Source: Takakia lepidozioides (taxonomy: Eukaryota > Plantae > Bryophyta). From it: a stretch of DNA of 64,000 nt. The notes below the pieces were generated by a model, which saw only the letters and a program-made list of their open reading frames with translations, was not told where the DNA came from and did not search any database. Both the position numbers and the translations under genes were made by a program. How positions within the stretch are numbered: position 1 is the stretch's first letter; every line of letters starts with the position of its first letter. Shown one piece after another: positions 6,263-51,387 of this stretch. The stretch is taken from assembly GCA_030704615.1 (NCBI GenBank), contig CM060732.1, positions 55,924,001 to 55,988,000 on the forward strand, in the 5' to 3' direction.

Positions 6263-6294
<32 letters not shown>

Positions 6295-7355: not shown

Positions 7356-7450
7356 GGTGGCTAGTCGCTTCCCATAGTAGTCAATGGCCACATCGTGCAC
7401 CACATCTTCATGCCCCGATTCTAGGGTTTTAGTCCCTGTCTGCCCCCCAT
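7356..7450 (-). pseudogene. SEC13: N-terminal fragment of SEC13 (WD40, COPII/nucleoporin) inside the Pack-CACTA
   Basis: KTLESGHEDVVHDVAIDYYGKRLAT matches the conserved SEC13 N-terminus (GHED.VHD...DYYGKRLAT); similarity stops abruptly after it. Confidence 0.8.
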
Positions 7451-8615
7451 CCCACCAACTCCACTCGTCGTCTCTCATGATCAGACTCGATCCTAAAACA
7501 AAACAAACATAGCTCCGCCCTATTCGACGTCTCTCATGATCAGACTCGACACTATAAGAAAGCAAACACAGCTCCGTCCTGTTTGTCGTCTCTAACAATC
7601 AAACTCGACACAAAGAAAACAAACAGATGGCAGGGGAGACAAAAAAACGCTAAGTCCCCTCTACTCATGACTGGATGGATGAATGTAGCGATAGATGGAT
7701 GGATTTTGGGTTTTCCATCAATACATCCATCCATTCATTTGTTTTTCCATTTTTTGGCCATTTTAATTTCATCCATTCATCCAAAATAAATCTTTAAATG
7801 AGTTTCACTGTCAGTTCATCCAATAGCTGCCAGCTCAGTGTTTGCATTATCATTTGTTCCTACGTTCATCCAATAGTTGCCAGCAAGGCGTTTGTTGTAT
7901 CATTCGTTCATACATTCATCCAGTGCACAAAAGTTATGTTTGATACGTTCATCCAATAGTTGCCAGCAAGGCGTTTGTGTATCATTCGTTGAGATAATAC
8001 AGTTGTTTTGTTTCACTAATCTTAACCAGCAGTCGATTAGTTTTACTATTAATCTGCTGGGTCAGTGAAACAATAGTTAAATATTTTTATTACTTATTAT
8101 CCTCATACTTAACACTGCGACCTAGCAACCCTAAATTCGAGCACATTCATCCTAATTCATCCTAGTTCACTCATCCTAATTCATCCTAATCATTCATTCA
8201 TTTCTTCATTCAGAGGGTGTGGCTTAGTGCCCGCGAGCAATGATATGTTGACACCTCATCATTTGCAATCACATCCTGCATCTGTTTCATCCATTTATGT
8301 TTGTATCGTCCACGTAGACACTCCTTGGGCAACCGACAATCGCCGCGTGCAGTCGTGACTACTGGCAGTCATACATTCTCATGCCCACGTCATCCTATTG
8401 CAGTTTTGGCCATGACTCCTAGTCGTATCTACCATCTTCCCCTATCTGGCCAAACGTGTTTGACCGCAGATCCTGACGTGGCGGAGGTACAAGGTGGCAT
8501 ATACGACTACTGGTGGTCACAATGGGCAACCAGGACTGCCCCCTTGCATTTTGTAGACATATATGCTACGACTGGGCAAATGTGGCAGACGTTAAAGCCG
8601 GGATCTGTTATAGTG

Positions 8616-20438: not shown

Positions 20439-22232
20439 TGAACTTCTCTGTCACAACCTATACCAATCAACTGAATCATATCAAATCAAATTAAATCAAA
20501 TGCATGATTCTCAATACCACTCTGCTCTCTGATTGTCCAGCTTCAGATAGCTGTCAAACAGTGTCTGAAACTTCAGCCTTTTATAGGGGCAGAGTCCTTG
20601 GTTGAGGAAGCATGGCGGTAAGGGTAGGTTGATATATGGCTCTACTCATGTTTCATCAGAGTGCCAGGATTAATTGCACAGATTTTTCAACTTCTGCTTA
20701 TTTGGAGTAAACTGACATTGGTGCAATTGGCCTGGGGTAGAGCAGCTGCGCAAGGAGCGAAGAGGAAATCAACTCTTGGCTGAGACTTACAAAGCTTTCA
20801 TATGCCTTTCAGAGCCAATGTTTGACCCTCTTTGTATCCCTCCTTGCTTCTTATGAATCCACCCATTTTCTTCCTTCCATTAAAGGAAGCTGCATTGCAT
20901 CTGTATGGCCAGAAGATGAAGGTTGGCTGACAATAGCAACACCTCTTCAGCCTACACCGACTTTAAGTTGATTTTGACCAAGCCAATCTATGAGGTTTAT
21001 TGAAAGTCACATTTAAGAATGACACCCGCCGACATTCTATTGCCCCAACATTTCAGGGCTCGTTTCAAGCAGCTGCTCGTAAGTGTAAACAAAGGCATTT
21101 TATTACCTCTCATTTGTGTCCCTGGAGAGAGGAGTATATTGGGTGTTATTAGGAGAGTACCGTAGTTTCCCCAAAAACTACATGCCAAGATGTCAGCGTG
21201 AAGGCCTATGCTGTTCTTATATACATACAGCCTTGCATGAAGTCTGAAGTTTACCCTCAGAGCTTGCAAAGCTGATTCTTATCAACTTGCATTGCCTTCT
21301 ACCCAAAGGACTGTGCCTTGATTCATTACTCAAACCCCCAACCCCCATCAGAGGTGCTGTTGGAGAGAACCACCTGATAGCATTCTGCCGAAACTGTTGA
21401 CTGATCAAACCAGACAAGAAATGGGATGATAAAGAAATAGTTGAGAGGAAATTGTTGCCTCACGCAATTTTCTACGCGGCAAGGCACAAACACCCATTTA
21501 TTGGGCGAGCTGTTGAATGAGGTCCGGGGGGATGACTAATTGAAGGCTCTGCTTCTCTTGCATTCATCTTTGACTCACTTGGACATGGGGTCTGTCTCCA
21601 CAGTTGTCGTCGATCTCTGGAAGCACAGAGATGATTCTGAGCTCGCAGGAGGGGACATACCAAAGGAAATTTCTTCTCCTTGCGTCAAAGGGGAGGGAAG
21701 CCCCACATCATGGAGCAGATTGTCGGAACCGGGTTTGGAGCTGAAATGGGAAGCCAGCTTAGGAATGCAGGGCCTCGTATTCTTGACAGGGATAAATATG
21801 ACGCCTTTCCAGCCTCGATCCCTCTTCATGTCCCCTGGATCTGTACGTGTATGGACAACACGGGTAGCGGAGAAAGGTATAATATGGGAATCTTTGCGTG
21901 TTTTTGGATTGGGTGTGTACAGAGTTTGAGCTTGCTCGATTTCTTCTTGAGGAGCAGTACAACCACATTTGTCGGGGAATTTTAGTCACGGTTGTATTGC
22001 ACGTGATGTGATACCGTTGTCCTCCTTCCACCCTCCCTGAGGATGAGCTGAAACTCCTGACATGTATATATTGCCTTTCCATCATTGCATGGCAGAGAGA
22101 CCGAGACAGATACTGGGTAACCTCTTTTACAGGGCACACTATACGGGATAATTGAAAAGGCCCTCATAAGCTTTGTAGGCAGCAATTCTCTTCTTCTCCG
22201 ACGGGCTATGTGAGATCTGCCCTCTAAACAAG

Positions 22233-29869: not shown

Positions 29870-31238
29870 TAGTTGGGCTCAGCTCTCTTTAACCGTGTGA
29901 GAGTTCTGCCTCCATCATATCCCCTGCTGTTGCAGCTCAAGGCTTTTCTGAGAAGAGAATTGCTCTTGGCTGGATTGTGGTTCTTGGGAGTCTCCCTCCT
30001 CGCTGAACTGACTTCTTATCGCAGCCCGAGAGCTTTGCTCTTCCCCGCGAGAGATTCAACACTATGAAGGTTCTATATTCTGGTTTTTCAAAGCTCCTAT
30101 TAAGCTCTTGCAATTCGACCCGACAGAGTGGTGTTGGATGAGTAAAAAACCATGATCATTTCTTCGCCTATACTGTTAACCTGGGATACTCCTTGCTCGT
30201 GACATGAAATGGTTGAGGAAGTGGGCTCACCTCTCGGAGCTACGAATCCTGTGGGAGCTTGTTTGGGCTGATGTATGGAAGAAGCATAGGCCTTCAAAAA
30301 TTTATGGCCTTCTCTGGAAAATTGTCAACAGGCCCCGTTCCTGTTGGAGCAGCCTTCTCTGACCTGCAGTCTCAGTGTGCAGTTTGTTATCAGAATTGCT
30401 TGGAAGACATTGAGCATTGTTTTGTGCTCTGCCCCTTTGCGCAGGCTGCTTGGTCTCATGCTTTTACTCTCTGCTCTTACTGGAACTCTAATCTTTCCTA
30501 CTCAACATCTGCTTTGCTGCTAAACGTCAAGGATGGTAACCTTTTTTGTTCATGTCCGATCTGGGAAACACTCAGAGGCATTTCGTTGTGGCATATTTGG
30601 AAAATTAGATGCTCTGTTGTCTTTCAGAAGGTCATGCCCTGTTTGTAGAGGCTCTTATCTTGGCTCACTCAGACATGTTGTCTGAGGCCCGCAAATCCTG
30701 AATGACGTGGTGACAGCTCTTCCCAAATGTGGGAGCAGAATGGGATGCCAGCTCCTTGCTGCCTTCGACAGTACATGGGGAAAGGGTGGGGTGTTCTGCA
30801 GAAGAGTATCGGACTCGAGAGTTATCTGGGAAGAAAGCCTCCCATCTTGTTGGCAGCTCAATTAACGCAAGGATTTCACCGCTGGGAGCGAGGAGGTGGA
30901 GATCAATTGGGGACACCAGAAGCATAGTCTTATAAAAGGTAAATCGAAAGCTCAGCTTTCGTTCGATGCCCCCAAAAAGAGAAGGGGCAGCTCTTGATTA
31001 GGCTTTCTTGGTAGTTCCAGTAATGACCGTATCTCTGGTGCTTAGTTGCCTTTTGTCTTTGGTTCTTTCATCTATTTCGAGTTTGTTTTTAGTTACTTAA
31101 GTTCTTCAGAACTTATCGGGATTTTGGCTTCTTTGGTTATTTGTGCTTTCTTCCTCTTCTGGCTGCCATAGTTCTAGTTTTTATCAGGGCTACAATCCCC
31201 TTGTTGATCCTTTATATATATATATATAAAAGAAAAAA
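29870..31238 (+). mobile_element. 5'-truncated, degenerate L1-type LINE 3' end
   Basis: zf-RVT motif CAVCYQNCLEDIEHCFVLCPFAQAAW and WETLRGISLWHIWKIRCSVVF (30259-30648); AT/A-rich tail at ~31210-31238. Confidence 0.75.
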
Positions 31239-31505: not shown

Positions 31506-31846
31506 TTGTCCTTGAGAGTGACATAGAACCGTATTTTCAAAACCACTTGAGAACAAATATAGGGCGCAATTTATTTTTTTGAGGTAAATTTTAGAAATTT
31601 TTTACTTAGAAAATATGGTAAGGCAATATCATTTCACCCAATTTTTTAAGAAAAAAGGCAATAAAAAATCCAGAGTTTTACTTAAAAAGTTAATGTAATA
31701 AAGGGTTTTATCTACAATATAATGTATCCATCCTGGTGAAGTTTCTCATATTTCATCCAGCTCTAATCCATTAGGATGAAATCAGGTAGATGTCACCTGA
31801 AGTTCAAATATGATTCCAGTGAAACACAATAGGTTGACGTTGATAT

Positions 31847-32199
31847 TGTCAAGTTAAATAAGCACAGTGTGAAACTAACTAGAATAAAGCTAGTTATTTG
31901 TATTTAACACTTGGATTTAAGTCAACTGTTAAATCAGATGTCAAGTTTAGTTTTGATACCTGAACCGTCTTATCTTCATGAGAGCGTCAGTCCGCAGCTC
32001 ATCTCTCTCAAGTTGAGCCTGCGCGACCGAGCTCCTGCATGCGTTTAGAACTGAGTGTGTTTATGATGGGATGATAGGTTGTTGTGGGGTGGACTCTTCA
32101 TAGCTTGGGGTGCTCCTGGCTCGACTATTATCTTAAAGAGTGATAGCGATGGATTTCATGTTTCTTGTGTCAAGAGTGTGTTCTTTAGCTTTCTTATCA
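31847..32199 (+). repeat. Left terminal repeat segment A1 (353 bp)
   Basis: Matches 42391-42744 with ~16 substitutions and one indel by hand count (~95% identity). Confidence 0.95.
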
Positions 32200-32214
32200 C
32201 TCGAGAGAGATGAG
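32199..32214 (+). promoter_or_regulatory. Self-priming primer-binding site (Tf1-like)
   Basis: ACTCGAGAGAGATGAG at and immediately after the LTR end is the exact reverse complement of CTCATCTCTCTCGAGT inside the LTR (42543-42558; one mismatch in A1 at 31998-32013). No TGG-starting tRNA PBS is present. Confidence 0.75.
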
Positions 32215-33205
32215 GCTTGCATCTGTGAGTGCCAGAGGTGAGTTCAGTTTTAGCACTTGTGGTTTTTGTTTTAAAAGTGAGAGAAGCGATTTGTTGAAAG
32301 AAGGTGAGCAATGCTTGGAAGGGTGTGCAAGTGCAGGTGGGGTGAGACGATGCCATCTGTTTGCTTTTTGATGATTTGAGCCTATGAGGAGAGGCGGAGC
32401 TGCCGCTCTACTTGTGATCACCACTTAGCAACTTATGAACTCACGGGGGAAAACAGCTTGCTGGGGTGCGGCTATAGACACTGTGCCGTCATTGGCATTC
32501 ATGATTACGATTGTACAAGGCAGGGCCTGCGGGAGAAGTAGTTTGCTGCCAGATGATGGGCAGGAATTACGTTGAAGACTTTGCAGTGTGATATCCTACG
32601 CAACTAACGGACTGAGGGCCAGGCAAAGCAATCAGTTTATGACGATCAGAGATAACGACGGAGCATGTTGCCATCCCTCTGCCGTTCGGAGAGAAGGAAG
32701 AGGCAGCCTCTTTCACAAGATTCTTGGAGTTTGTGGGGCTCCCTTATCAAGTAATCAAAACCAGCAATGTGTTTCCTGCTAAAGTCTTTGATTGCAGTTC
32801 AGACTGGTAATCAATCAAGATAGAGCGAATGCGCGGCAGCTTCAATCAGTCACGACGTTTCTTGCCTGAGGTTTATTTGCCACCAAGGCGGTCGGTGTGG
32901 ATATGGAGGTGTCGGTTTGGCTGTGATCGGTCTGGATCCGGCTTTTCTCTTCACGGGTGTGTGATTTGACAGAAAGCGATTTGCAGCAGATGTTTATCGG
33001 TTTCAGAGAAAGGAGGAACATATTATACAAGTCCGCTGCAATGAAGGAGTGTCTGAAACTTGCGAAAGATCAATGCAATTAATCTGACCGTCTCGGAGGT
33101 TATTGGTGTCAACCACAGGAAGGCGAACTAAAGGCACTTCAAGGACGAGAATGGTGCTGAAAATGCATTCAACCTTTTCAAGGCTCCTGGAGTTCGAGAG
33201 AGGAT

Positions 33206-33457
33206 GTGGAGTCACATGTAGTAGACACCTCCTGCGAATCAGAAATTGATGCAGTTGTAACAGCCCGCATCCACTCAACCATGACCCGGGCCCTCTTTCG
33301 TGCCATATTGCCAGAGTCTGGTGAAGATCCGGCACAGACCACAATGCATGATTCTGACCGTACCTTCATTATGGGAAGCATTACTGACAGGTAGACGATG
33401 ATGTTTGTTGCCAACGAGGAAGGGAAACTTCTTGCACTGCGCCAGATCTTCAACCAG
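33206..33457 (+). pseudogene. Captured degenerate DEAD-box RNA helicase fragment (DDX52/ROK1-like) in the retroelement 5' region
   Basis: EIDAVVTARIHSTMTRALFRAILPESGEDPAQTTMHDSDR..*TMMFVANEEGKLLALRQIF resembles the motif III (LFSATLP..VEELAR..MHD) to KL.F.G.EEGKLLALRQ stretch of DDX52/ROK1 helicases as I recall it. An in-frame stop is present. Confidence 0.6.
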
Positions 33458-34359
33458 GTCTATGTGCTAAGCTCTTGTATCCCATGGTTGGGTGATTTGC
33501 ACAAGTCAGAGCCATTGCAAGTGAGTCCGGAAGATAGGGCTCCCAATGCTCCAGATACAGACCTCTTTCCTTGCGGTGCAGACCAGTTTGCTGCAACTCC
33601 GCTGTAGCGTGAAGGATGGTAGAGAGGTTGCCATCTGCGAATCGTTGCATGCGAAATGCTGATGTGAGGATGAGAGGCGGACTAAAGAGATAAGTAGGAA
33701 ATCGCAGCTTCACTGCTTCCCTGGAGATGCTTGCTCTAAGCCGAGTGTTGTGGTGTACTAGACTTCCAAGCATTCACTGGACATCCTGTGTGAGTGGAAC
33801 CAGCTTGAACCTCGTGAGCCTGAAGGGGAGCGAGGGCGATTTCTGGTTTTGAGTGTTGTGTACGACAAAGAGTAGGTAGCCGTGAGGACTGAGCAGAACT
33901 AGGAGCTGGTAGGAGCTGACGGGCATCTCTGCTGCATGGCTTGGAGATTGACGAGCATGCAAGCTGCTCATGTGCAACCCTTTGATCAGGTCTTTGATCG
34001 GCCAAATCGGCCAACACCCCGCACCACCTCCTTGTTCCTGCTTGCTCGCGCAGGCTTGGCCATCGCTGCCATCGTCTGCGTCCGTCTTGCCTCTCTCCCT
34101 TGAGCATACTGAGTGCGTGATTAATGTGAGGCCATTTCTTTCAGGACCAATTGGCCTTGCGGTTTATGAGTCCAAGGAATTCTTAGGGAACCAGGGAACA
34201 GGGAACCAAGACAAGTATTGAAAAAAAAACAAAAAAAATGACTCTGCTAAAAATCTATGGAATTTTTAGAATGTGAGTGTGCCGTGAAAGATCCACAATT
34301 TTGTTTCTAGAACCTGTTCTGGTCTATATGAGAGGCAAATCTGTGGATGTCCTCTTTGT

Positions 34360-35006
34360 ATGGCTGGAGGAAATGAGGACGTAATTGAAGGGCAGGTCTC
34401 TTCTCTTAGCCTGTGCACACAAGGGGACAGGATTTATGTTTCCCAAGGAACTCAGACTGATTTGAGTGGAGAACAGTTGGACGAGTTGATTGCATACTGG
34501 GAGTCAGGCATTAGCAGTAGACAACAGTCTGTTGTAGTTGGCGTTGAAGGCCTCAATATCGCTTTGGACAGTCAGAACTCTGTTGGAGCCAGCAGTTCTG
34601 CAGCTGTAAGTGAAATACCAAAGTGGGTGAAAGCTAGGCTTGGAACACAGCCAAAGACAGCCCCGGGTACCAAGGTGTTCAGCCACAAGGCCGTGGTGTA
34701 CTGGAGTAGAGGAGTAGGAGCTACACAAGTTTGTGCAATAAGACAGTTGCAAAGACGGACACGCTCTGCACAAGAAACCACGAGAGGGGGTTCATTAGAA
34801 AGGACAAAGTTTGTTTGTTGAAGAGATGCAAGTCATTCGCCAATGAGGAACACCCGCAACCGTCTCAAAGCTTTCGGTTGAGAGACTATCAGACCCTACC
34901 TTTGTTTTCTTTAGTGTTCAGTGAGCGGGAGATAGATGAGTATTGCTTTGTCTCTACCTGGCAGAAAGAGGAGGAGGGGTTGTTTGAGCGAGCTACTGTA
35001 CTGTAG
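34360..35006 (+). pseudogene. Extra ORF upstream of gag (frameshifted near 34720), unknown function
   Basis: ATG-initiated ORF 34360-34821 overlaps ORF 34731-35006 in another frame; together about 215 aa with a small Cys/His cluster. No family recognised. Confidence 0.35.
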
Positions 35007-35847
35007 CTTGGGACAAGGTTCGTGGCAGGTTTCTGGACATAGATATACCTCCTACACCTTATATGCAGGAGCGAGGCACTTTGAGAGAAGTCTGGCAGTT
35101 GATAGTATAGATCAGGATTAGATCTTGCTTGGTCGGGCTTCTATTCTTTCCCCCATCTCTGTACTATTTTCATTACCTTGTACTTGTAGTTGCCAAAGCC
35201 TCTTTGGTGGAGGCCAGTCAGTCTGGGGTTTGGGCTGGGATGGGGATATTCTGCAGGTCAGCACTGCAGATGGATTTTGGTGTGGGGGTGTTGATGTTTG
35301 ATTTCTTGTGTTTGGATCCCCCCCAACACCTGCATGCTTGACTGTGCGCCATGTTGGTTTTGTGTGGGCGCTTGCTTTCATAGGGATTAGGCCGGATTTG
35401 ATCACCGGTCAATCCTAGAGATGCTGTCGATGATCGGTGGTGAGGCTGGAGTGATGACCAGCAAGACCACCAGTGTTTCTTCTATGGTGAGACTGGGTTG
35501 ATGACAGCCAACCATATGAGTTCTTGCGGTGGATGCAGGTGCAGGTGCCCTGAGCCACTGGGATATGACCCTTTAAACTGCAACAGGTGCCCACCCGTGT
35601 CACTATTAGGATTAGTACTAGAGCCGTATAGTGTCAAGTGGGATCACGGAGTTACCCAAGGGTTTTGAGGGGAGTACGGATACAGGCAAGCAGTAATAAC
35701 AGTGAGAGTGGGTTCACAAGACGAGATATTCGGTTCAGACCACCTCACCTCCACCCTCAACTAGTGCAGAGTCAGACACGATTCGGAGGCTTCATCAATA
35801 GGGTGCAGTTTCATTCGCCATGTTGTGGGACGACATGGAGGAGATGT

Positions 35848-36910
35848 ATGGAGCTACAAGGGGCCTCGTAGGTACTCTGGAGCTGTGGGCACAATCGGTT
35901 GGATGACTTTATCCAGGAGTTCGACAGCTGGTGTGATTTGCAGCAGATGCGCAATCCACAGCTATTCACCCCATTCATGGCGTGGAAGAGACTATTCCAG
36001 CATTTGGAAGGCCCGCTTATGGACGATTACCACGAGTTCGGGCGAGGACATGAAGCAGAGATTGAGGAGTGGAGGATGTATTGTCACCTGACTACGTCTC
36101 CATTACTCGAGGCACGACGCGACCAGTAGTAGCTGCATCAGTACCAAATCTCCCACTGCCAGCACTAGTAGTGGAACAAGTAGTGCGGTACTTCTGCAGG
36201 TGGTACCAGTTCAAAAGTTGCTACTACTCCTCCTGCCACGACTACAACACATGTGCCTAGATTCAACCCGGTGGTGGAGTTCTTCCAGGAGTTGCGGAGG
36301 AAATACCAAGGTGTATGGACAGAGAAGCTGCGAAGTTTGCAAGACTTCCAGCGCAAACCCAGTGAGAGCTGCGAGAGCGTACACTCGTATGAGGCGCTTG
36401 ATAAGTGTGACCCAAGGGGTTACTGAAGCTCAGGCAATCCAGTTTTGGTATGGAATTGTTGGACAGGAGCTCAAGAGAAGGGTGCAGATGAACCCTCTTA
36501 CAAGCAACCCAACCCACATTAGCAGATGTGTTTCTGCTGGCTGAACGGATTGAGCTCAACATGGTGGAGGAGCGAGTGTTACCATTGATTTGGCAAGGAC
36601 ATGCCTGCACAAGGCGCAGCTGCTAGCCACAGGCACAAGGGACTGCCCAACAGCGTGGTCAGGGGGGGCAAGGTTTCCCAACCCAATTTCATGGAGCTTA
36701 CAGGGGACCTCAGGTACAAAGGCCCGTGGCATCTTTTGCAGGCCAAACAACCAGGGGTGATATGTTGGACATGTGGAGGAGGACCCCATGTCAAGAGAGA
36801 TTGCAAGAGAGTGCAAAAGGCGCGGCACAAGCACAGCCTGCACAGTTGCCAGTGTGGGCATTGTGGCAAGTATGGGCATGAGATGCCCAGTGTTATGACT
36901 TGCATCCTGA
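35848..36910 (+). pseudogene. gag: Retroelement gag (frameshifted) with zinc knuckles
   Basis: PRRYSG..LDDFIQEFDSWCD, EKLRSLQDFQRKPSES, and CWTCGGGPHVKRDC plus CGHCGKYGH knuckles. Confidence 0.75.
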
Positions 36911-37859
36911 GTGCGCTCAGGCCAGTTCCAAGGGAACAATGGTGGCCGGGGCCGAGGTGGACCAGCCCAGAGAGGACGAGGTGGTCGGGCACGAGGTGTA
37001 GGCCAAGGGCAAGCTCAACATGGCCAAGGACGCGAAGGTTAGGGTTTGTTGACCAAGGCATGGCCAAACGGCTTCAGCAGCTAGAGTGAGGCTCGCTGCC
37101 ATGGCCACAGCTCAGGTGGTACCGGCTCCCAGCGGGGGATGGTCCACCTCCTGCGCCTGAGGGAGGAGATATGGGAGGCATAGGATTCATGTGCGGAGAA
37201 GCGCTACCACTAGAGCAGGTGGAGTCTGCTGCAGCGTGACTCGAGGAGCAGGAGCATCACGAGTTCCTGAGCCACGAGGTGCAGAGGTGGAATGGATCCA
37301 CAAGCGTGGGGAGGCAAGCCGTCAGGCGAGGCTTCCTCAGTCATTCACATTGGCGGAGACTGTGTCGACGCCATCCATGGCACCTAGTTCTCGCCCGACT
37401 GTTACCAAGGCGGAGGTTACTGTACCATTGGGGAGAGCTACAAGTGCAGCACTGACACCTGCTGCCAAGGCTAGTGCAGCCGGTGTATTATTGGGGGCAG
37501 CCACCTCTGTGTGTCAAGCCCCACTGTTTCTCGGCAACCATGATTGCGACACCAGGGGTAAGACCAGCTGTAGTGTTCAGACTAGCAGCAAACACTCTGT
37601 GAGAGTGGGAGGTACTTCATCTTCTGCGGAGTTAGTAGTGGAAGGTGTAGTGCAGAGGGATCCTCGGATTTGAGGGTCAAGACTGCCACGGCTGCACCAT
37701 GGCAGCTAGCCTTTGAGCGCGCCATGGTGACACCTGGAGTTGTCTTGTTAGACAACCAGGATGGCATTTTCACTTTGAGTGCCTTTTAGTTTATATATAA
37801 GCTCTGGTGACCGGAAGAAGAGGCCAGTGAAAGAACCCTCAATTCCCAAGGTCACAGGC

Positions 37860-38170
37860 AAGAAGTACCGGCCACTTCGGGTCTTGTTGGACTCGGGAGC
37901 TCAGCCACTGATGTTGGGCAGAGCTGCTATTGCAGGTTTGGGCCTCATGGAGGCGGAATGGAGCCTTGTCCTTTCCAGATACAGACATCTTGGGAGGATC
38001 AGAGCAGGCTCGGGGCATGACACGGCATCAGTTAGCCATTAGACTGCAGCCGGATCATCCTAGAGATGGCTCGGTGATGCGAGCCAAGGCCATTGTGACA
38101 GACGCGGTCTCTACGATGTCATCGTTGGTGGGGTAGTGTGTTATACCCCATGGGCTTCACCTGGACTTCT
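37860..38170 (+). pseudogene. Retroelement aspartic protease
   Basis: RPLRVLLDSGAQPLMLGRAAIAGLGL carries the catalytic D-S-G; frameshifted downstream. Confidence 0.8.
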
Positions 38171-38598
38171 GGGAGGAGTCAGCATACTAAGGCCTGGATG
38201 GCAGTCAGGGGATGGTCGCCGTGCACAGCTCCTGTGACATTCATGGGGTGTATTGCGGCTGCCCAGCGGGGCAAGATGCCAACACTAGCCGCCTTTCAGC
38301 TGCAGTAGTTGGCCTGAAGAGTTGCTGGAAGGCAATGCCCATGCCGAGGATGTGCCGCCTCCAGCAGAGTAGGATGACATGCATGGTATGGCGGAGTTGC
38401 CTGCCATGGTTGCTCACATTCCATTGTGGGGTACGAGTAAGGAGTTGCAGCAGACTGCTGATGGACGGGTGCAACAAGCTGGGTAGAAAGCTTTCGTACC
38501 GTCAGGAGAGGAGGAGAGTGCGGTGATTGCACCAGGACCACCTCAGTTGTCTCCATTGGACACCACACCTATTGTGTGGCAGTGCCCGAATGAAGGAC

Positions 38599-39545
38599 TT
38601 GTTTGGCGGGGGGATCAGCACTGGATTGGCTGCAGTGCTGTGTAGGCAGATGTACGAGTTCGACGTCCTGTATGTGGAGAGGGATGGGACGGACTGACGA
38701 CGCGTCTCACTGCGCCATGTTGCTCAGATGGTGCAGCAGTACCCTGACTTGTTGCCGGTGTCTGCAGTTCGTGGATATCAGCAGGCCTTGCCAGTAGACA
38801 TTTCGTTGCTGGGGGCGTAGGATTTGGAGCAAGTTGGCTCCATTGATCTGGTAGTGGCAGGTTGGCCCTGCCAATGCATTATCAGCCGGGCTGCATGGCA
38901 ATGGATTGCGAGACTCGAGGACGGGTCTGTTTTGGGGAGATGGTGCGCATTTTGCGCCACTTGCAGCTTCATCAAGTGTATCTCCAGCATACATCTTGGA
39001 GAATGTGCCACTGATGGGTGATTCTCGGGCAGGGTGATGGCCAGTGTGCATCAAGTCCGGTCGTGGCTTAGCGTCAGCAGTGTTGCTGGATGCAGCTGCA
39101 GTGGGGTCACAAGCTCATCGTCCACGGCTTTGGTGGACTAACTTGATGCCACCCCCACTGCTCAAGCGTGCATTTGATGGGGTGCAGCGGCCAGCACACC
39201 TCACCGTGGATGGCATTTTGGACACAGGGAGGCAGTCTCAACGTGTGAGACACGCTGACCGTTCGCCTTTGGCCGTGGTCAACAGGGGTGGGTCAACACG
39301 AGCAGCATTACCTACACTGCTCAGACTTCCCAGGATCCAATGCTTTTCGGGATGGTGGACCTGGCCTCCTGTGGGATGCTCAGTTGCAGCAGTTAGTGGA
39401 GCCTAATGCCGACGAGCGAGAGCGGGCTATGGGGTTTTCCACTGGGACCACGGCGTGCCTTCTCTTTCTGAGGCATCACGTCGTCAGGTGTTGGGGTAAG
39501 CAATGGATCTCAATTGCTTGAACTGGATTATCAGCTTGGCTATGG
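38599..39545 (+). pseudogene. C5-cytosine DNA methyltransferase domain (DNMT3/DRM-like) embedded in pol
   Basis: Motifs in canonical order across frameshifts: I LFGG(G)ISTGLAAVL (38599); II YVERD; III/IV DISLL..IDLVVAGWPCQ (PC 38866-38871); LFWEMVRI; VI YILENVP (38999); VIII LDAAAVGSQAHRPRLWWTNL; IX EPNADERERAMGFSTGTT; X RRQVLG*AMDLNCL. Confidence 0.88.
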
Positions 39546-39959
39546 CTGAGCAACGTAGAGTGCGGAGTGCACTTCCCTTGCGTCTCTCTGCCTACCGAGA
39601 CGGTACAGGCAGCGAGTGGGGGGCGAGCCGGTGAGGACCACGGGGTGTAGACATCCATGGCACACGTGGGAGGTGCTCGAGGTTCAGAGGGAGTTGGCAG
39701 CCAAGGCAGCTGTGATGGATGAGGTTGGGGATTCTTCTCGGTTGATTGATGAGGTCATCAGGATGAGATGATGGGGCAGGATGAGGCTTTGTCATTGACT
39801 GAGCAGGCAGGGAGTACTGCTCAAGAGGTTGCGGCATAGCAACCACGGGACGCGTCTTCTACCTCTAAGCCTGCTGGACTCAAGGTTGCAGTCACGGAGG
39901 ATAATTGGGAGCCTGACATTGGACCCATTGTCACCGGAGGAGAGAGACGACGTATCGGC

Positions 39960-40410
39960 GGTTCCTGAGGGCTTACAGGAATTGCTTTGCCTTTAGTTTG
40001 AAGGACTTGGGAGCACTGAAGGGTCAAGAGATCCGTATTGAGTTGGCCACTGACACGCCAATCTTTCAGAGACCCTATAGATATAGTGACATGGAGAGGT
40101 CTTTGATTCAGATAAGGACTCAAGATCTCGGGAGGAGGTTGGTGGAGCTCTCTGGTGGAGAGTATGCTTCAGCCACAGTGATGCCAGCCAAGAAGGATGT
40201 CTATGGCAATAAGACGGAGAGACTATACGGCAATCTCTTCACCCTTGTCACGGATCACCAACCACTCAAGTGGTTGATGGAGTCAGACAAGCTTACGGGG
40301 AAGCTTGCACGGTGGGCACTCATCTTTCAAAAAAATATGACTTTCAGGTGGTGCATCGACCGGGTTTGGTCAATCGCAATGCAGATGGGTTGAGTCGCAA
40401 TCCATGTACG
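39960..40410 (+). pseudogene. RT N-terminus fused to RNase H C-terminus (RT core deleted)
   Basis: IRIELATDTPIFQRPYRYS..EYASATVMPAKKD runs directly (~40222) into LYGNLFTLVTDHQPLKWL..LTGKLARWAL..YDFQVVHRPGLVNRNADGLSR; no YxDD motif. Confidence 0.8.
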
Positions 40411-40599
40411 AGCCAGCGGGATGACACTGGAGCTCGGTGGCATGGTGAGACGGATGAGGAGATGGAGCCCGGATGGCATGCATCTACATTTTTGTGTATC
40501 TTGCAGCAGAAAGCCAGGTTGGACCTGCAACAGGGATGAACTGTAGATCAAGTGTCTGAGGACCCTGAGGCCAGCAATGAGCAAGGTGACGCCAAAGAT

Positions 40600-41850
40600 A
40601 TACATGAGGATTCAGTTGTGTTGGACTACCTCCGCACTGGAGACATGACAGCCACTGTGACTGCCAAGGAGAGGGATCGGATCCTACAAAGAGCCAAGAG
40701 GTTCAAGTGGGGGGGGACACACCTGCTCCGAGTGTGGGAGGATGGTCGAGTGAGGATTGTGCCTCACCCAACACAGCGGGCACGGTTAGTGCGGCAAATG
40801 CCCATGAGGAGTTGGGGCATTTTGGGATGCGACGCACTCATAGTCTATGCAGGGGCAAGTATGGTGGGTGGGTGGCGTGGTATGCACACAGAGGTATGCA
40901 ACAATTTGTGGCTAGGTGCATGGTGTGTGACAGGGTGCGTGCTTCATTCAATGCCCCTACTCCACAATTGCACCATCTTCCGATCATGGGATTGGGCTAC
41001 AGGTGGAGTCTTGACTTCGCAGGGCCGTTGCCACTGCCCATGCGCACAAAAGTACATGTTGGTGATGGTGGAGCACTTCTCCAAGTGGATTGAGTTGGTT
41101 CCATTGCCTGATAAGGCTAGTGAGGAGCTGCGTATGCATTCTTGGATTGTGGGCTTAGCCGATTCGGTGCTCCAGCTGAGGTACTCACGGACCAAGGGAG
41201 AGAGTTCTTGGGGAGGGGAGTTTCAGGCTTTGAGTGACAAGGCCTTGATAGACCACCGCACCACTTCTCGGGATCATCCTGAGGCCGATGGCTTGGCAGA
41301 GAGAGTTGTTCAGACAGTAAAGAGGGGTTTGCGCAAGTATGGCTTGCAGAAGGGACACCTAGGAGATTGGGACCTTCAGTTACCTTGGTTAGTCATGGGC
41401 TACAGGTTCAGCAAGCAAGCATCACTTGCCTCCTTCTCACCATACTCTTCGGCCGAGAGCCGGATTTGCCTACATCCATTCGCAGAGAAGCTGCTACAAT
41501 TCTTAACCTTGACGATCCGAACGTGTGGGCACGTGCATGTGAGCAGCGTGCAGAGTTGTTCAGAAAGTCATGCCCATGGCTTTCGAGAACCTTGCCATTG
41601 CACAACACCGTGATACGTTGAGGTATGCTACCATACGTGGTGGGGGCTATCGTCCTGGGGTTCGGAGATTCAACCCTGGTGACTATGTCTATCTGCAGCA
41701 GACTGCTCCTACGACCTTGGATGTGACTGCAGGACGTGTTATTTGAGGGTTCGAGAGGTCTTGCCCTCAGGCGTCTTGGTCTTGGAGGGTCGGGATGGCA
41801 TAACTTGGAAGGACCATGTGCGTAATTGTGCGCCATGTCACATTCCGAAT
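40600..41850 (+). pseudogene. DDE integrase (H2C2 zinc finger, rve core, C-terminal SH3-like region)
   Basis: AHEELGHFG..CMVCDR; WSLDFAGPLP; VMVEHFSKWIELVPL; LTDQGREF; HPEADGLAERVVQTVKRGL; RRFNPGDYVYL; several frameshifts. Confidence 0.9.
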
Positions 41851-41901
41851 GTCGATGGCAGGATTGACCCAAACCTGGCAGTGGTATCTGCAAGTTTGAG
41901 G

Positions 41902-42034
41902 TGCATGTTGTGTGGGTCTGCTAGAGGGGCAGCCACCATGCTGGTGTGTGATCGATGCTCTAGAGGTTGGATATGGGATGCTTGACTCCACCTCTGAGAT
42001 GGTTCCGGATGGGGATTGGTTATGTCCACAATGC
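41902..42034 (+). pseudogene. PHD finger at the integrase C-terminus
   Basis: CMLCGSARGAATMLVCDRCSRGW(H)MGCLTPPL..VPDGDWLCPQC has C4HC3 spacing with the conserved W; two 1-bp deletions, one in the His codon. Confidence 0.85.
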
Positions 42035-42292
42035 ATTGGATAGTGGGAGTGGATACAACCATGGGAGGCTAACAAGAAATGCAAGGCCAAGCTACTAGGA
42101 GACCTTGAACACACGAGAACCTGGCTCAAGTTCACAGATTGCAAGACGGCGACTAACGATGGGGCTACTCTTGTACCCGGGCTCTTGGTCTTTAGAGTTT
42201 GAGTACAATAGAGACAGTGATAGATGACTTAGTACGGTTGTGGCTATTACATCTTGTAGCTATCTGGAGTTAGAGGGACCTATCCACCAGCT

Positions 42293-42301
42293 AGGGGGGC
42301 G
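42293..42301 (+). promoter_or_regulatory. Polypurine tract
   Basis: AGGGGGGCG followed by AT and then TG of the full-length LTR copy. Confidence 0.65.
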
Positions 42302-42303
42302 AT

Positions 42304-42744
42304 TGTGGCAGACTACTTTATTGTGCATATATGTGTGATGTGGTTTGGACAGCAATGTAGTTGTGTAGCGATACGTATGCGCACGACAGCTGTCAAGTTA
42401 AATAAGCACAGTGTGAAACTAACTAGAATAAAGCTAGTTATTTGTATTTAACACTTGGATTTAGGTCAAGTGTTAAATCAGGTGTCAAGTTTAGTTTTGA
42501 CACCTGAACCGTCTTATCTTCACGAGAGCGTCAGTCGCGCAGCTCATCTCTCTCGAGTTGAGCCTGCGCGACCGAGCTCCTGCATGCATTTAGAACTGAG
42601 TGTGTTTATGATGGGAGAATAGGTAGTTGTGGGGTGGAGTCCCCATAGCTTGGGGTGCCTCTGGCTCGACTATTATCTTAAAGAGTGATAGCGATGGATT
42701 TCATGTTTCTTGTGTCAAGAGTGTGGTCTTTAGCTTTCTTATCA
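42304..42744 (+). repeat. Complete LTR unit (B1 + GC + A2), TG...CA
   Basis: Starts TGTGGCAG after the PPT, ends CTTATCA, and contains the palindrome GACAGCTGTC at 42385-42394. Confidence 0.85.
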
Positions 42745-42749
42745 CTCAT

Positions 42750-42834
42750 TGTGGCAGACTACTTTATTGTGCATATATGTGTGGTGTGGTTTGGACAGCG
42801 ATGTAGTTGTGTAGCGATACGTATGCGCACGACA
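42750..42834 (+). repeat. Terminal repeat segment B2 (85 bp)
   Basis: Copy of 42304-42388 with 2 substitutions; ends GACA next to the TSD. Confidence 0.95.
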
Positions 42835-43199
42835 ATATCATAATCTCAACATTGACTATGACATTTGAACCATCTCAAAACTTGTACTCTTTAGATCCAA
42901 GTGATGTTGCGGCTTTGAATGATTTCGTGGCTAATGAAAATTAAAAAAATTCTTGGGTCTGGCATTTGACTTATGTTATATGGAATGTACTTGTTTTTGT
43001 AGATGCTTTGAAATTTTATAATTATTCAAAATGACAATTTAAAATAGGGTCTAATTAATTGTTGCAAAAGAAAAATAGGGTGTTAAAAAACAAAGGGTTT
43101 TACAATATTACCTAAAGATAGGGTGGAAAAAAATGTTAAAAAAATATATAGCCTAGTATAAATATACCTTTGTATAAAAATAATACAATATAGTGACCT

Positions 43200-47410: not shown

Positions 47411-48799
47411 TCAAGGAAGCATAAGGTCGGTCGAAGAATCGTCTTGAAGAATCTCCAGTTGAGCCCACAACAGAGGAGAAGCTCTGGGACCAGCGAGCTG
47501 TGGTGACATATTGAGAGATTCAGCAAGCATCTGAGTGACTCTCCGCATGGATGGCCTCTTAGAAGGCTTCAGTGATAGGCAGAGACTGATAATCTTACAG
47601 AGCCCCACGAGCTCATCATGATTGTGAGACTTCAACATTGGATCCACTATGTACCATACCATTTTTGGGTCAGAGAGATACTCGGTGGCCCAATCGACAA
47701 GAGAACCTTCCAATTCACTGTGAGGAGGTCGGCCAGTGATAGTTTCGAGTAAGAACACACCAAAACTGTACATGTTGCTCTCGAAATCGGGGCAGTGTCG
47801 ATCTGAGCCCTCTAGATCATTATAGCCGATTGCCCTTTGGCCCATCCAGTTTGCCCTCGGATGCCGTTCGCTTCTTATAACAGGCACCTTTGTCACCCCA
47901 AAATTTGCTATCTTGGCAGCATAGTCGTCCGTAAGATAAACTGCACTTGAATCAAAGTTCAAGTGGCTGGCAGGAGGGATCAGGTCATGGTGCATGTACT
48001 CCAGACCGTAGGCTGCTCCCATCACTACACGCATGCGTGCTTGCCAGTCTAAGTGCTCCGACTCCTTGTTATGAAGATGGTCAAAGAGGGTGCCATTGGA
48101 TGCATATTCGAAGATGAGCATGCGGGTAAAGGGATCCTCCTCTGCGCAATAGGCCACCAGATTGACCAAGTGCCCATGCTTCATCCGTGCCAGAGCTTCT
48201 ACAGTCCTCCGAAACGAGAGCTCCGCTTGAGGCGTCCAGTTTACTGCGCCAGACACCCGGATACTAGCGGCTGCAACCTCTGTCCCACTTGATAACGTCC
48301 CTTTGTACACAACGCTGTCGGCAGAAGAGCCAATGATGTTGCTGAAGTCCTCACATGCTTTCTCCATTTCCCCCCTACTTAGTGAAGGCACGGTCGTTTC
48401 AAACGCCTTCTGCAGGTGTCCACTCATGCCTGACTTCCAAGGGCTAACTGCAGTTGTTCTTCGTCTCTGACGAACGTATACGACAGCCAATACGACCAGA
48501 GCCGTGATCAACAGAACTCCAGCTCCACATCCCACTAGATAGACCCACAAATGGGACTTCACAGATTTAGAAGAGTCAGCCTTTGCCGGGCTCAGACCTC
48601 CAGCAGAAGGTTCTCCAACCCAAGCCTGAGCTTCCAGGCTGTCCGACTGCAGCATGCGAGAACCTGTAAACGAACGGCCGGCGCTACCAGACACAAACCC
48701 GAGAAACATCAAGCAAAGCACCATCCAGGAGAGCATATCCCTTGCACGGCACATCCTAATTCCACTTGCGCTGGAGTGAACCATCCTTAAACGTCCCAT
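47411..48799 (-). CDS. Single-pass receptor-like (pseudo)kinase, MDIS/At2g40270-like, intronless
   Basis: Continuous ORF with a signal-like hydrophobic stretch, TM helix, VSPWKSGMSGHLQKAF..ACEDFSNIIG, CAEEDPFTRMLIFEYASNGTLFDHLH and ASPLLWAQLEI. The catalytic Lys and HRD are absent (VAAASI, SHLNFDS). Confidence 0.9.
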   Translation of the reverse strand: MGRLRMVHSSASGIRMCRARDMLSWMVLCLMFLGFVSGSAGRSFTGSRMLQSDSLEAQAWVGEPSAGGLSPAKADSSKSVKSHLWVYLVGCGAGVLLITALVVLAVVYVRQRRRTTAVSPWKSGMSGHLQKAFETTVPSLSRGEMEKACEDFSNIIGSSADSVVYKGTLSSGTEVAAASIRVSGAVNWTPQAELSFRRTVEALARMKHGHLVNLVAYCAEEDPFTRMLIFEYASNGTLFDHLHNKESEHLDWQARMRVVMGAAYGLEYMHHDLIPPASHLNFDSSAVYLTDDYAAKIANFGVTKVPVIRSERHPRANWMGQRAIGYNDLEGSDRHCPDFESNMYSFGVFLLETITGRPPHSELEGSLVDWATEYLSDPKMVWYIVDPMLKSHNHDELVGLCKIISLCLSLKPSKRPSMRRVTQMLAESLNMSPQLAGPRASPLLWAQLEILQDDSSTDLMLP

Positions 48800-51387
48800 C
48801 CCACCCCTCCCCAAACTCCCTAATCTCAAATTCTACGAACAATAGTCTGCTATTTCTCCCCAACTGCGATGTGATGGTGAAAACTCAAGCACCGCTGTGC
48901 ACCTAGTCCTCACACGAACTCCCACACTACTTCCTTGTATTCGACGCTATCACAACTTGTCATCATTGGAAACCTGCAGCTCCCCGCCATATGCCACCAT
49001 ACCTCAAGCCCTCCGACTCCGAGCTCGGGGTAGAGACAATTACGAAACCCTGAAATCCAGAAACACCAAGCTCCCCTCCTATCGTCCTCGTAATCCCTAG
49101 CACGCATTTCCAGTTTCTTCAATCCCTCGGTTACACAAATTCTTCACTCCGAAGCCAGCAATTGACCATCGCGTAGCCTCCAGAACTCTCCAAGCCTAGG
49201 AATCCTCGTTCTCAATCCCAAACTGCTGTCTTGCAAACCTCGAGGCCACGTTCTTTGCAGAAAACAATCCTCCGTGACTTGTCTGCAGCCCCATAAGACC
49301 AATCGTTGCGCCCATCTCGCTGCTTCCTAGAACTCCCCGCCTCCAATGTTGACGCTGCCACCTCTGCCTCACAACTGAGCTTCCCGTGCCAGCAGCGAAC
49401 AAGGAAGCAACGCTGGCGGAGTACCACCTCTTGTAATGAAAACGAACCACCTCTACAGTTGCCCAGAACTTGCTGGCCATCCTTTTCCCCTTCCCACTAA
49501 ACCATGGTTTAAATCACCCGACGGCCGAGTCTCGTTAAGACAAGAATCGCCCCGATTTGATCGTGGCCTCTCGTATTACATCAATAATACGCGCCAGACT
49601 GGCCCAGCAGCAGCCCTTTCTAATATATATACATTTGGAGAAGACGTGCATGGGCAAACGTTATGGGACTAAAAATTTTAATGGAGCATTATTTCGGCCC
49701 CCCCCTCCTCGCCTCCTCGCTCTCGCTCGCCAGTGGATGTTAAAATAATACCCGACAGGCTCGCCGGAAGCAAAGGCCAGTTGGATGATGGTCTGAACTC
49801 GCGGCACAGCTAATGATGGGGTATCAGCTGGGCTGTCATTATGGACTGCGCTACTTACTAGGGCACCCCTGCCATAATTTGGGACCCTTTTGTGAGTCAC
49901 ATAAAAAACAAATGTGTGGCGGGTATTTATCCCATAATGTTTGCCCCAAACACCACACTGGGAAGGCATATATACGCCACCTCATGTGATGCATATCCTC
50001 GCGTGGGATGCGGCTGATCGTTAAGTAAGATTTGGATGGATGAAAGTTGCCTTGTCCAATGTAGAAGCTTCTTTGGACTCTTGCATTGCAAGGCTGATTG
50101 CTGTCCATGCAATGGTGTAGCGACATGTGGCGTGGCCCAACATCATATGCTTCATGTGCTTGGTCTTTGTGGGGGCCAACTTGTCTTTGGCATATATGGG
50201 GTACATGGGGTGAGAGGCTACCCCAGAGAAGTTCATGTACACAAAAAGGTGGTCAAGGGAAACATGCAAAGTGGGAAGCATTGATGAGGTGAGAGTTATG
50301 AGGGGACATCATCAGTGTCGCCCTATTATGATAATGCGAATGGGACACATACACACAAAGGTGGCAGGTCAAATCAGCTGAGGTTTTGTTATGTAATTTG
50401 TGGGTATCGTAAACGACGTTGTCATTTACGATACTCACAAATTGTATTCGGCGAAAACAGCCAAGTTTTGGTGCAAGTGATGAGCACACAAAGAGGCATC
50501 AAGGGGCCCGGCCATCCAAGGCCCAAAAGGAGTGCCCAAATACAAAGATGGCATCAAAGATAGAAAAATCAAGTGGGCCCCAAGAGTACTTAGTTGCAGT
50601 GTGTTGTTCGCTTGTGGAAGGGGATGTCCCCAAGACAGGGGTGCGTGCCGTCAAAGATGCGTCACGATTTGTGGTGTCATCCTCACCATCACCACATTTG
50701 TGAAGAACTAGTCTTTTATGATCATCAGGGCCTCCATGTTTTTGGTTGTTTGTTTACTCCACACAGGTGACGGGACCATGGTAGTGGTGTTGGATGCACG
50801 GTAGCATTATCGATGGCGGCGCCAACATTGTTGAAAAAATAAAGGAAGGAATCGTGCACACATCCTCTTCAAACCATGTAACAGAAACCCTGCTTTTTCC
50901 TGTTGACCATTAAAGGTGTCTGCACTGCAGATTACAAAAGCTGCAGTGCAAGAGCAGGACATGGCATGACATGACATGACATTCTTCAAGTGCGAGAGGC
51001 AGCACTGACATTACTCTTTCCCTGCATTCAAAACTCTATGAATTGCATTGAGACTCGAGAGTGATAACTTTCCAATTGAGAGAGAGAGAGAGAGCGAGAG
51101 AGGGAGAGAGGGCATCATCTCTCAACTGAAACCCATGTTTGCCTTGAAAACATTACTTCATGGATGAATGGATCGAGCGGCGGGTTCTTCATGGGGCTAA
51201 TGCACCTTGGTTGACCCATCTATAACACTCGCAGACAAAAAGGATTCCTTGTGAAAACAATAGAAAAGACAAGTCTTCCAGTTTTTCATTTCTTAATGGA
51301 AGACGGTTATTTTCTCCTCTCACTATTAAGGGGTGGTGAGCTGTCGCTCCCAGGTGTTTCCCTTTTCAAAAAAAAAAAAAAAAAGGA

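What the first reader, a model, noticed from the sequence alone, without database searches (positions are those of the whole stretch)
31843..42838. Split LTRs: the provirus reads as a 2-LTR circle opened at an internal palindrome
Seen: structure is ATAT|A1...internal...PPT-AT-[B1-GC-A2]-CTC-AT-B2|ATAT. The conventional LTR is B+GC+A (TG at 42304 after the PPT; CA at 42744). The 5 nt between A2 and B2 (CTCAT) equal the 3 nt following the left LTR (CTC, 32200-32202) plus the 2 nt preceding the right LTR (AT, 42302-42303), as expected for a blunt ligation of unprocessed linear cDNA ends. The integrated ends instead fall at the LTR-internal palindrome GACA-GC-TGTC. The central GC is lost, the termini are clean TG/CA, and a 4-bp duplication sits in a palindromic target (TGATATCA). 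Knowledge: A...B-A-B split direct repeats are typical of tyrosine-recombinase elements (Ngaro/PAT), but this element has a DDE integrase. Inference: integration went through a circular intermediate cut at a secondary att site inside U3, either as a family-specific pathway or a rare accident.
Basis: partly seen in the sequence, partly recalled or inferred. Interest (0 to 1): 0.88.

Follow-up and report, generated by a model that had tools for sequence, protein, structure and literature searches.

The report
Gypsy retrotransposon integrating through internal palindrome
This is a dead copy of a plant jumping-gene family whose inserted copies all start and end in the middle of their terminal repeat, at a short palindrome, which likely means that its integrase opens a DNA copy whose two ends were first joined, a route long debated for retroviruses.

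Summary
It is not an accident. The element is a defective Ty3/Gypsy retrotransposon (DNMT3-like methylase, DDE integrase, PHD finger; its RT is mostly deleted) that likely self-primes. In 83 fetched related loci, all 19 distinct 5' ends begin at the palindrome half-site. Of 49 classifiable 3' ends, 27 are B-A-B and 22 are B alone. None is a conventional LTR end. 13 of 15 complete relatives have a 4-bp duplication (9 exact). The palindrome is conserved across five LTR families that otherwise share no detectable repeat sequence, so it is the family's normal attachment site. The A-to-B junction is the two reverse-transcription ends joined, likely anew in each cycle. The layout was noted once, in one figure-legend sentence on Klebsormidium KnitGypsy-Dnmt3, without a mechanism. 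Circle intermediates are inferred, not observed.

The parts
31843..31846 (.). Left copy of the 4-bp target-site duplication (ATAT)
31847..32202 (+). A1: LTR part downstream of the palindrome (rest of U3, R, U5, up to the inferred cDNA end); begins with the att half-site TGTCA
31998..32009 (+). Predicted transcript 5' end / 12-nt self-primer inside A1, exact reverse complement of 32203-32214
   Evidence: shuffle control 1 of 2000
32200..32214 (+). Primer-binding site; 15 of 15 nt complementary to 42543-42557 in A2
35850..37400 (+). Decayed gag region with zinc-knuckle-like motifs; many stops and frameshifts
   Evidence: tblastx/blastn to relatives; translation
37875..37910 (+). Aspartic protease active-site motif (LLDSGA)
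   Evidence: same motif in intact relative L081 within Pfam Asp_protease_2 hit
38596..39616 (+). Broken C5 DNA methyltransferase domain (DNMT3-like in the intact relative)
   Evidence: tblastn; Pfam PF00145; best solved relatives DNMT3A/3B
39917..40333 (+). Remnant of RT start running into the end of RNase H; roughly 290 codons of RT/RNase H are missing near 40220, so the copy is non-autonomous
   Evidence: query residues about 147-441 unmatched
40324..42030 (+). Integrase (zinc-binding, D-D35-E core) and PHD finger, frameshifted
42293..42301 (+). Polypurine tract
   Evidence: same position in relatives
42302..42388 (+). B1: first part of U3, from the PPT-defined cDNA end to the att half-site GACA
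42385..42394 (.). Intact internal palindrome GACA-GC-TGTC, the head-to-head pair of integrase attachment sites
   Evidence: conserved at 30 of 30 distinct B1/A2 joints (window included)
42391..42747 (+). A2: second copy of A, supplies the 3' R repeat needed for minus-strand transfer (inferred)
42745..42749 (+). Junction of the two cDNA ends (CTC|AT; join between 42747 and 42748)
42748..42834 (+). B2: second copy of B, supplies the right attachment end GACA
42835..42838 (.). Right copy of the 4-bp target-site duplication (ATAT)

Best explanation
This is a defective copy of a bryophyte-type Ty3/Gypsy family whose copies begin and end at the two halves of a palindrome inside the LTR; the family likely makes an ordinary two-LTR cDNA by self-primed reverse transcription, likely has its two ends joined, and its DDE integrase is predicted to open the joined molecule at the left LTR's palindrome and insert it with a 4-bp duplication. 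Shown by sequence: the layout, its family-wide use, the conserved palindrome, the 4-bp duplications, the PBS after A1 and PPT before B1, the junction made of both cDNA ends, B2 sharing its own B1's variants, a D-D35-E integrase and no tyrosine recombinase. Inferred: (1) a staggered cut after each CA leaves CA-3'OH ends with 2-nt 5' overhangs, the same chemistry as a 3'-processed retroviral end; (2) joining comes before integration; (3) the opening is directional. I think the likeliest cause is that the intermediate is not symmetric when cut: the plus strand, finished last, is joined or run on to the already finished left end, while the minus strand still carries its RNA self-primer. Only the left cut then yields an insert that is continuous on both strands; only this form has R at both ends and can replicate again. 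(4) The repeat-less A…B copies are dead-end products of the same enzyme acting on 1-LTR circles or on both palindromes of unjoined cDNA, with some made later by B1 x B2 recombination.
For: All 19 distinct 5' ends of relatives are flank|TGT-A with no B upstream. 3' ends: 27 distinct B-A-B, 22 distinct B-only, 0 conventional. 4-bp duplication in 13 of 15 complete relatives with at most 1 mismatch, 9 exact; mispaired controls gave 2 of 240 exact and 17 of 240 within 1 mismatch; 5 and 6 bp gave 0 exact. The palindrome is found at 30 of 30 distinct B1/A2 joints, and its core departs only by C>T or G>A. The five A/B families show no BLAST similarity to each other. The junction is a blunt join of both cDNA ends in 15 of 26 scoreable relatives (read by eye, allowing C>T/G>A); the rest have short deletions, extra letters or filler. 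The L012 filler copies 11 nt from about 30 nt upstream. Minority letters of B1 recur in the same element's B2 in 15/41 and 94/238 cases against 31/246 and 645/3570 for other elements' B2. Self-complementarity between A and the PBS was found in the window and in families F1, F2 and F4; in F2 a TATAAAA lies about 32 nt upstream. In the window's own host, 62 (X1) and 37 (X2, median loose length 255 nt, agreement 0.38) contigs leave B at 42834, and 12, 5 and 3 contigs bridge A end to B start. Precedent: HIV-1 integrase cuts the palindromic 2-LTR junction to CA-3' ends (PMC1905944 abstract; PMC4372172 passages). RTs including Tf1's can clamp onto acceptor strands (PMC3035444 passages).
Against: No circle or cDNA was observed; all evidence comes from old inserted copies. 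The same final sequence would arise if integration came first and the host then joined the two ends. Mostly perfectly blunt junctions and a templated filler look like host end-joining of double-stranded ends, which would tend to give a symmetric circle and does not explain the direction. Two complete relatives (L016, L062) have no duplication. Self-priming was weak in F3 (score 8). The 12-nt primer rule could be anchored only for the window and F2. B-only copies trend older than B-A-B copies (median end branch 0.098 vs 0.072, p = 0.18), so later recombination may make a good share of them. Relatives are the best 80 of 334 confirmed matches, are short-read metagenome contigs, and appear to come from few samples.
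Confidence: 0.6

Rival explanations
1. Integration first, joining second: integrase cuts linear cDNA at the left palindrome and inserts both half-sites, leaving a break between the A2 end and the B2 start that the host repairs, by end-joining (A…B-A-B) or by annealing B1 with B2 (A…B). No circle is needed.
For: It gives the same final sequence. It explains the host-type junction scars and the near 1:1 mix of the two forms, interleaved on the tree (13 changes, 480 of 500 shuffles as low).
Against: It needs a chromosomal double-strand break at every productive insertion and still needs a reason to choose the left palindrome. 15 of 26 junctions lost no letter.
Confidence: 0.2
2. One reading: a fully closed, symmetric 2-LTR circle made by host end-joining is opened at either palindrome at random, and the mirror product (A-B-A…B) is not seen because it collapses to A…B through its longer tandem A repeats.
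For: Blunt and filler junctions fit end-joining. 2-LTR circles of HIV form by NHEJ and can be cut and integrated (PMC4372172 passages). B-only copies make up about the missing half (22 vs 27).
Against: Collapse would have to be nearly complete (0 of 19 5' ends), while the equally tandem B repeats survive in 27 copies. Complete relatives are 7:0 (0.5^7 = 0.008; 8:0 with the window, p = 0.004).
Confidence: 0.14
3. A Ngaro/PAT-like cycle: the transcript carries B1-A2-B2, B2 is inherited, and a tyrosine recombinase (own or borrowed) integrates a circle.
For: The repeat order is identical to Ngaro/PAT (PMC7192593 passages; PMC5890265).
Against: No tyrosine recombinase among the 13 ORFs scanned from two intact relatives. 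4-bp duplications of varied sequence and loss of the central 2 nt are integrase marks. B2 tracks its own B1 with no position-fixed differences. The junction varies from copy to copy.
Confidence: 0.03
4. One-off accident, later rearrangement, or assembly artefact at this locus.
For: This copy's own junctions are not bridged by a listed contig.
Against: The same layout occurs in 7 complete and 27 3'-end relatives from other assemblies, and other copies in the same host end at B and join A to B.
Confidence: 0.03

Closest known systems
KnitGypsy-Dnmt3 of Klebsormidium nitens (de Mendoza et al. 2018, PMC5890265; I read section 9 with the Fig. 4 legend and search passages, not the figure)
   Same: Gypsy domain content, a DNMT3-related methylase in the polyprotein, and repeats 'the same as that of a DIRS retrotransposon' (A-coding-B-A-B).
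   Different: What I read gives no att palindrome, target duplication, junction anatomy, self-priming, repeat-less A…B copies or mechanism, and no land-plant range. I could not compare sequences; no Klebsormidium protein was named.
Tf1/Sushi and Tcn1 self-priming Ty3/Gypsy elements (PMC6317226 passages; PMC11042837 passages)
   Same: Gypsy order PR-RT-RH-IN; PBS complementary to the element's own R region; primer-derived letters at cDNA ends.
   Different: Those have two whole LTRs; here the LTR is permuted, a PHD finger follows the integrase, no chromodomain was found in the two intact relatives, and a DNMT sits between protease and RT.
Integrase cleavage of palindromic 2-LTR circle junctions in HIV-1 and foamy virus (PMC1905944 abstract; PMC4372172 passages; PMC1180852 search listing only)
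   Same: A DDE integrase opening a palindrome of two head-to-head att sites to give CA-3' ends.
   Different: There the palindrome is the end-to-end junction, cutting restores a normal provirus, and the route is minor. Here the palindrome is encoded inside U3, the true end junction is left intact inside the insert, and it appears to be the only route.
Ngaro / PAT-like tyrosine-recombinase retrotransposons (PMC7192593 passages)
   Same: Split direct repeats A1…B1-A2-B2; the internal B/A joint mirrors the joined termini.
   Different: They encode a tyrosine recombinase; this family has a DDE integrase, PBS, PPT and 4-bp duplications. The likeness is convergent.

Membership tests
Ty3/Gypsy LTR retrotransposon | Domain order PR-RT-RH-IN with Gypsy-type RT | tested here: met
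   Intact relatives L081 and L003: protease, DNMT, then RT-RH-IN-PHD; best solved match Ty3 Gag-Pol, E 7e-100; window follows the same order with RT mostly deleted
Ty3/Gypsy LTR retrotransposon | DDE integrase with D-D35-E spacing | tested here: met
   35-residue spacing in 5 of 5 relatives checked; motifs present in the window across frames
Ty3/Gypsy LTR retrotransposon | PBS after the 5' repeat and PPT before the 3' repeat | tested here: met
Ty3/Gypsy LTR retrotransposon | TG…CA termini and a short target-site duplication | tested here: met
   14 of 16 complete elements (window included) have a 4-bp duplication within 1 mismatch
Ty3/Gypsy LTR retrotransposon (canonical structure) | Two complete U3-R-U5 direct repeats at the ends | tested here: not met
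   0 of 19 5' ends and 0 of 49 3' ends of relatives are conventional; hence a variant, not a canonical member
KnitGypsy-Dnmt3-type elements | DNMT3-related methylase in a Gypsy polyprotein | tested here: met
   PF00145; top solved matches DNMT3A/3B/3C ahead of bacterial enzymes, E about 3e-8; window remnant 40% identical to L081
KnitGypsy-Dnmt3-type elements | A-coding-B-A-B repeats | tested here: met
   description
KnitGypsy-Dnmt3-type elements | RT/IN phylogeny in one clade with the Klebsormidium element | not tested
   No Klebsormidium sequence was returned under a name or 55
DIRS order (Ngaro/PAT) | Tyrosine recombinase | tested here: not met
   No such Pfam hit at E <= 0.05 in 13 ORFs of L081 and L003 (8 of 16 and 5 of 10 ORFs listed; overlapping frames left out), nor in 14 window ORFs
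DIRS order (Ngaro/PAT) | Split direct repeats | tested here: met
Tcn1 / Tf1-Sushi chromoviruses | Self-priming PBS | tested here: met
   15 of 15 nt complement; 1 of 2000 shuffles gave a 12-nt match; sequence prediction only
Tcn1 / Tf1-Sushi chromoviruses | Chromodomain after integrase | tested here: not met
   PHD, no chromodomain, in L081 and L003; PF00385 in only 2 of 56 distant hits

The most novel reading that the evidence does not exclude
A widespread green-plant Gypsy clade has moved its integrase attachment sites from the cDNA ends into a palindrome inside U3 and replicates obligatorily through an end-joined, circle-like cDNA that its DDE integrase opens directionally: the first natural retroelement lineage for which circles are the normal integration substrate of a retroviral-type integrase, and one that LTR-pair finders miss.
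Probability: 0.55. Interest if true: 0.85.

Novelty: new variant of a known kind. Interest (0 to 1): 0.72.

Why it matters
Whether circular cDNA can be a true substrate for retroviral-type integrases is an old question (recalled: raised for 2-LTR circles in the 1980s). In HIV it is at most a side route, studied in connection with integrase inhibitors. Here a whole natural family appears to depend on joined ends and a palindrome cut, and intact relatives exist (L081, L003), so the question becomes testable with a defined 10-16 bp substrate. It would also be a convergent arrival at the Ngaro/PAT layout with a different enzyme. Practically, plant LTR catalogues built on paired LTRs with TG/CA and a duplication (PMC6317226) cannot call these elements correctly, and about half of the copies have no repeat at all, so this clade is likely undercounted in bryophyte and algal genomes.

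Tried and rejected
No whole genome is held for this window, so no census of copies in the host was possible. An exact 22-nt B-end pattern found nothing in metagenome contigs. The protein scan of viral contigs found no relative. The left junction and A ends in the host's own runs remain unchecked against reads. Run X5 held only 0.18 of the words; its few contigs agree but carry little weight. Summed contig depths were not used as copy numbers. L003 and L081 read PPT-B-GC-A-PBS, and L081 has a 127-nt end overlap; I treat them as collapsed assemblies of a repeat, not as evidence for 1-LTR circles, and left them out of the end counts. Also left out as ambiguous: L020, L035, L047, L063, L064 (3' ends) and L010 (5' end cut by the contig). 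Fifteen loci had no same-strand A/B match: 10 end within about 210 nt of pol, and L021, L042, L074, L078 and L083 are interrupted or distant. A palindromic target preference was rejected. Four X4 contigs with loose letters before 42746 could look like conventional left LTRs, but their letters end like a diverged A; I did not count them either way. Differences between B1 and B2 in a 15-bp tandem unit (L028, L030, L041, L069) were rejected as mechanism evidence because L026 and L032, the same insertion, differ in it too. The age test of B-only against B-A-B copies was inconclusive. Literature searches for 'split LTR' + gypsy (0 papers), 'permuted LTR' (0 occurrences in the 15 listed), 'split direct repeats' + gypsy + integrase (8 papers, listing only suggests DIRS-type context) and Klebsormidium + Gypsy + DNMT3 (1 paper) found no mechanistic description. 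Subscription journals, Repbase Reports and bioRxiv supplements were not searchable, and Fig. 4c of PMC5890265 could not be seen as an image.
Full report
Observation. ATAT flanks the element at 31843-31846 and 42835-42838. A1 and A2 share 337 of 353 aligned letters and B1 and B2 share 83 of 85. GC separates B1 from A2, and CTCAT separates A2's CA from B2's TG. GACAGCTGTC is the longest perfect palindrome of the LTR. The divergences of A and B agree with one insertion event (p = 0.55).

What the element is. The inside holds decayed gag, a protease motif, a C5 DNA methyltransferase, a stub of RT running into the end of RNase H (about 290 codons missing), an integrase with all three catalytic motifs, and a PHD finger. 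Protein searches found 56 longer relatives of the integrase region and 37 of the methylase region. Named ones come from Calypogeia, Sphagnum, Pleodorina, Marchantia and Closterium. Two intact relatives have two long ORFs, gag-PR-DNMT and RT-RH-IN-PHD, with no tyrosine recombinase among 13 ORFs scanned. Their RT is closest to Ty3 among solved structures and their methylase to DNMT3. The 15 nt after A1's CA are the exact reverse complement of a stretch inside A2 (1 of 2000 shuffles reach 12 nt). This is the signature of Tf1-type self-priming described for Tcn1 elements (PMC6317226 passages). In family F2 a TATAAAA lies about 32 nt before the paired stretch. The host is a land plant (a PPR-DYW gene lies nearby); its nearest element relatives, about 70% identical in pol DNA, are family F1.

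Is it a family trait? Yes. I fetched 83 loci (the best 80 of 334 confirmed metagenome matches; 3 from genome bins). Sixty-eight had a same-strand A or B match. After removing repeats of the same insertion, 27 3' ends read PPT-B-NN-A-junction-B|flank and 22 read PPT-B|flank; 7 loci were ambiguous and 2 showed only the 5' part. None read B-GC-A|flank. All 19 distinct 5' ends (16 linked to pol, 3 from neighbouring copies on the other strand) read flank|TGT-A-PBS with no B before A. Fifteen relatives are complete: 7 are A…B-A-B and 8 are A…B. Nine have an exact 4-bp duplication and 4 more differ by one transition; L016 and L062 have none. Mispaired ends gave 2 of 240 exact. The A and B sequences fall into five families with no BLAST similarity to one another, yet all 30 distinct B1/A2 joints (window included) carry the palindrome, whose core departs only by C>T or G>A. 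The outer, reverse-transcription-defined ends are not conserved as TG…CA: F2 begins ATAC and F3 ends TTTG. In the window's own species, contigs of public runs show many other copies leaving B at the same base into long unlike sequence (37 contigs in X2, median 255 nt, agreement 0.38; 62 in X1). Some run from B back into GC-A, and 12, 5 and 3 contigs join A's end to B's start with a 4-nt shorter junction. No listed contig bridges this copy's own junctions.

The junction. In 15 of 26 scoreable relatives, read by eye, A's end meets B's start bluntly; the other 11 lack 1-7 nt, carry extra letters from the primer or PPT side, or hold filler. L012's filler repeats 11 nt from about 30 nt upstream, which from my own knowledge is typical of polymerase-theta-type end-joining. 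In the window and in F2 the usual A-side end is where a 12-nt self-primer would leave the cDNA end. B2 shares its own B1's rare letters about twice to three times as often as other elements' B2 do, with no fixed B1/B2 differences. So B2 and the junction are likely remade in each cycle from a normal two-LTR cDNA, not inherited.

How it likely works. Shown: the ends of inserts are the palindrome halves, the central two letters are lost, 4 bp are duplicated, and the joined cDNA ends lie inside. Inferred: a staggered cut after each CA gives two ends chemically like 3'-processed retroviral ends. HIV-1 integrase does this at the palindromic 2-LTR junction (PMC1905944 abstract; PMC4372172 passages). 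A two-LTR molecule with joined ends holds two palindromes. Opening the left one gives A…B-A-B, the only form with R at both ends. Opening the right one would give A-B-A…B, which I never saw (7:0 among complete relatives, p = 0.008; 0 of 19 5' ends). I favour an intermediate that is unequal when cut: the plus strand finishes last and can be joined or run on to the finished left end (RTs including Tf1's clamp onto acceptors, PMC3035444 passages; Tf1 cDNA ends carry primer copies, PMC11042837 passages), while the minus strand still ends in its RNA primer (recalled for Tf1). A nearer-palindrome preference (B is shorter than A in all five families) or a methylation mark from the element's DNMT could also give direction; neither was tested. 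A…B copies are mixed with A…B-A-B copies on the pol tree (13 changes among 32 rows, 480 of 500 shuffles as low) and are half of the youngest group (5 of 10). That suggests many arise at insertion, though the oldest group is 7 of 9 A…B and later B1 x B2 recombination cannot be excluded (p = 0.18). I put the family-level claim at about 0.95 and the full mechanism at 0.6; integration first with host repair of the break is the main rival (0.2).

What is known. De Mendoza et al. 2018 state in the legend of Fig. 4c that KnitGypsy-Dnmt3 of Klebsormidium has DIRS-like repeats with Gypsy domains (PMC5890265; section 9 read whole; passages; text supplements searched). What I read offers no mechanism. 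A 2026 preprint mentions streptophyte Gypsy-DNMT3 without the repeats in the passages seen (10.64898/2026.05.21.726589). Searches found no fuller account in the held library. Three earlier AI notes of this scan on other genomes describe the same layout; they are unchecked and were seen after my reading was formed.

Verdict. A real feature, a family-wide pathway, and a new variant of LTR retrotransposon integration whose layout was noticed once but, as far as my searches reach, not explained. Interest 0.72.

Noticed in passing
window 22179-25199 (+): Intact 1006-aa PPR protein with E, E+ and DYW domains (plant RNA-editing factor); its 303-bp tandem units explain the self-matches there.
   Followed up: partly
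window about 4200-8000: Short dispersed and tandem repeats (112-bp unit at 4826-5167) that by eye look like a decayed PPR gene on the minus strand; not translated.
   Followed up: no
window 47411-48832 (-): Protein kinase domain ORF, 473 aa.
   Followed up: no
window 62432-63073 (-): Gag of another, Ty3-capsid-like retrotransposon.
   Followed up: no
window 30217-30648 (+): zf-RVT fragment, likely a decayed LINE, just left of the element.
   Followed up: no
window 42835-43150: The right flank is itself a repeated sequence in the host's runs, so paralogous empty sites should exist.
   Followed up: no
window 32215-35850: Long 5' region with no match to relatives among the top BLAST rows; makes this copy 11 kb despite the RT deletion. 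Untranslated leader, extra ORF or insertion, unresolved.
   Followed up: partly
B1/A2 joints of 30 elements: The central GC of the palindrome is mutated to AC, GT or AT in many old copies, as expected from deamination of methylated CAG/CTG sites; the att site is a methylation target.
   Followed up: partly
Target duplications of 14 complete elements: Eight of 14 end in A on the left copy; a weak target preference is possible.
   Followed up: no
L081, L082, L083: Plant or algal retrotransposon contigs sit inside prokaryotic genome bins and carry a bacterial label in protein databases; likely binning contamination.
   Followed up: no
L081 3489-3491, L003 5083-5085: The two long ORFs are in frame and separated by a single stop codon, suggesting read-through for RT-RH-IN-PHD.
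   Followed up: no
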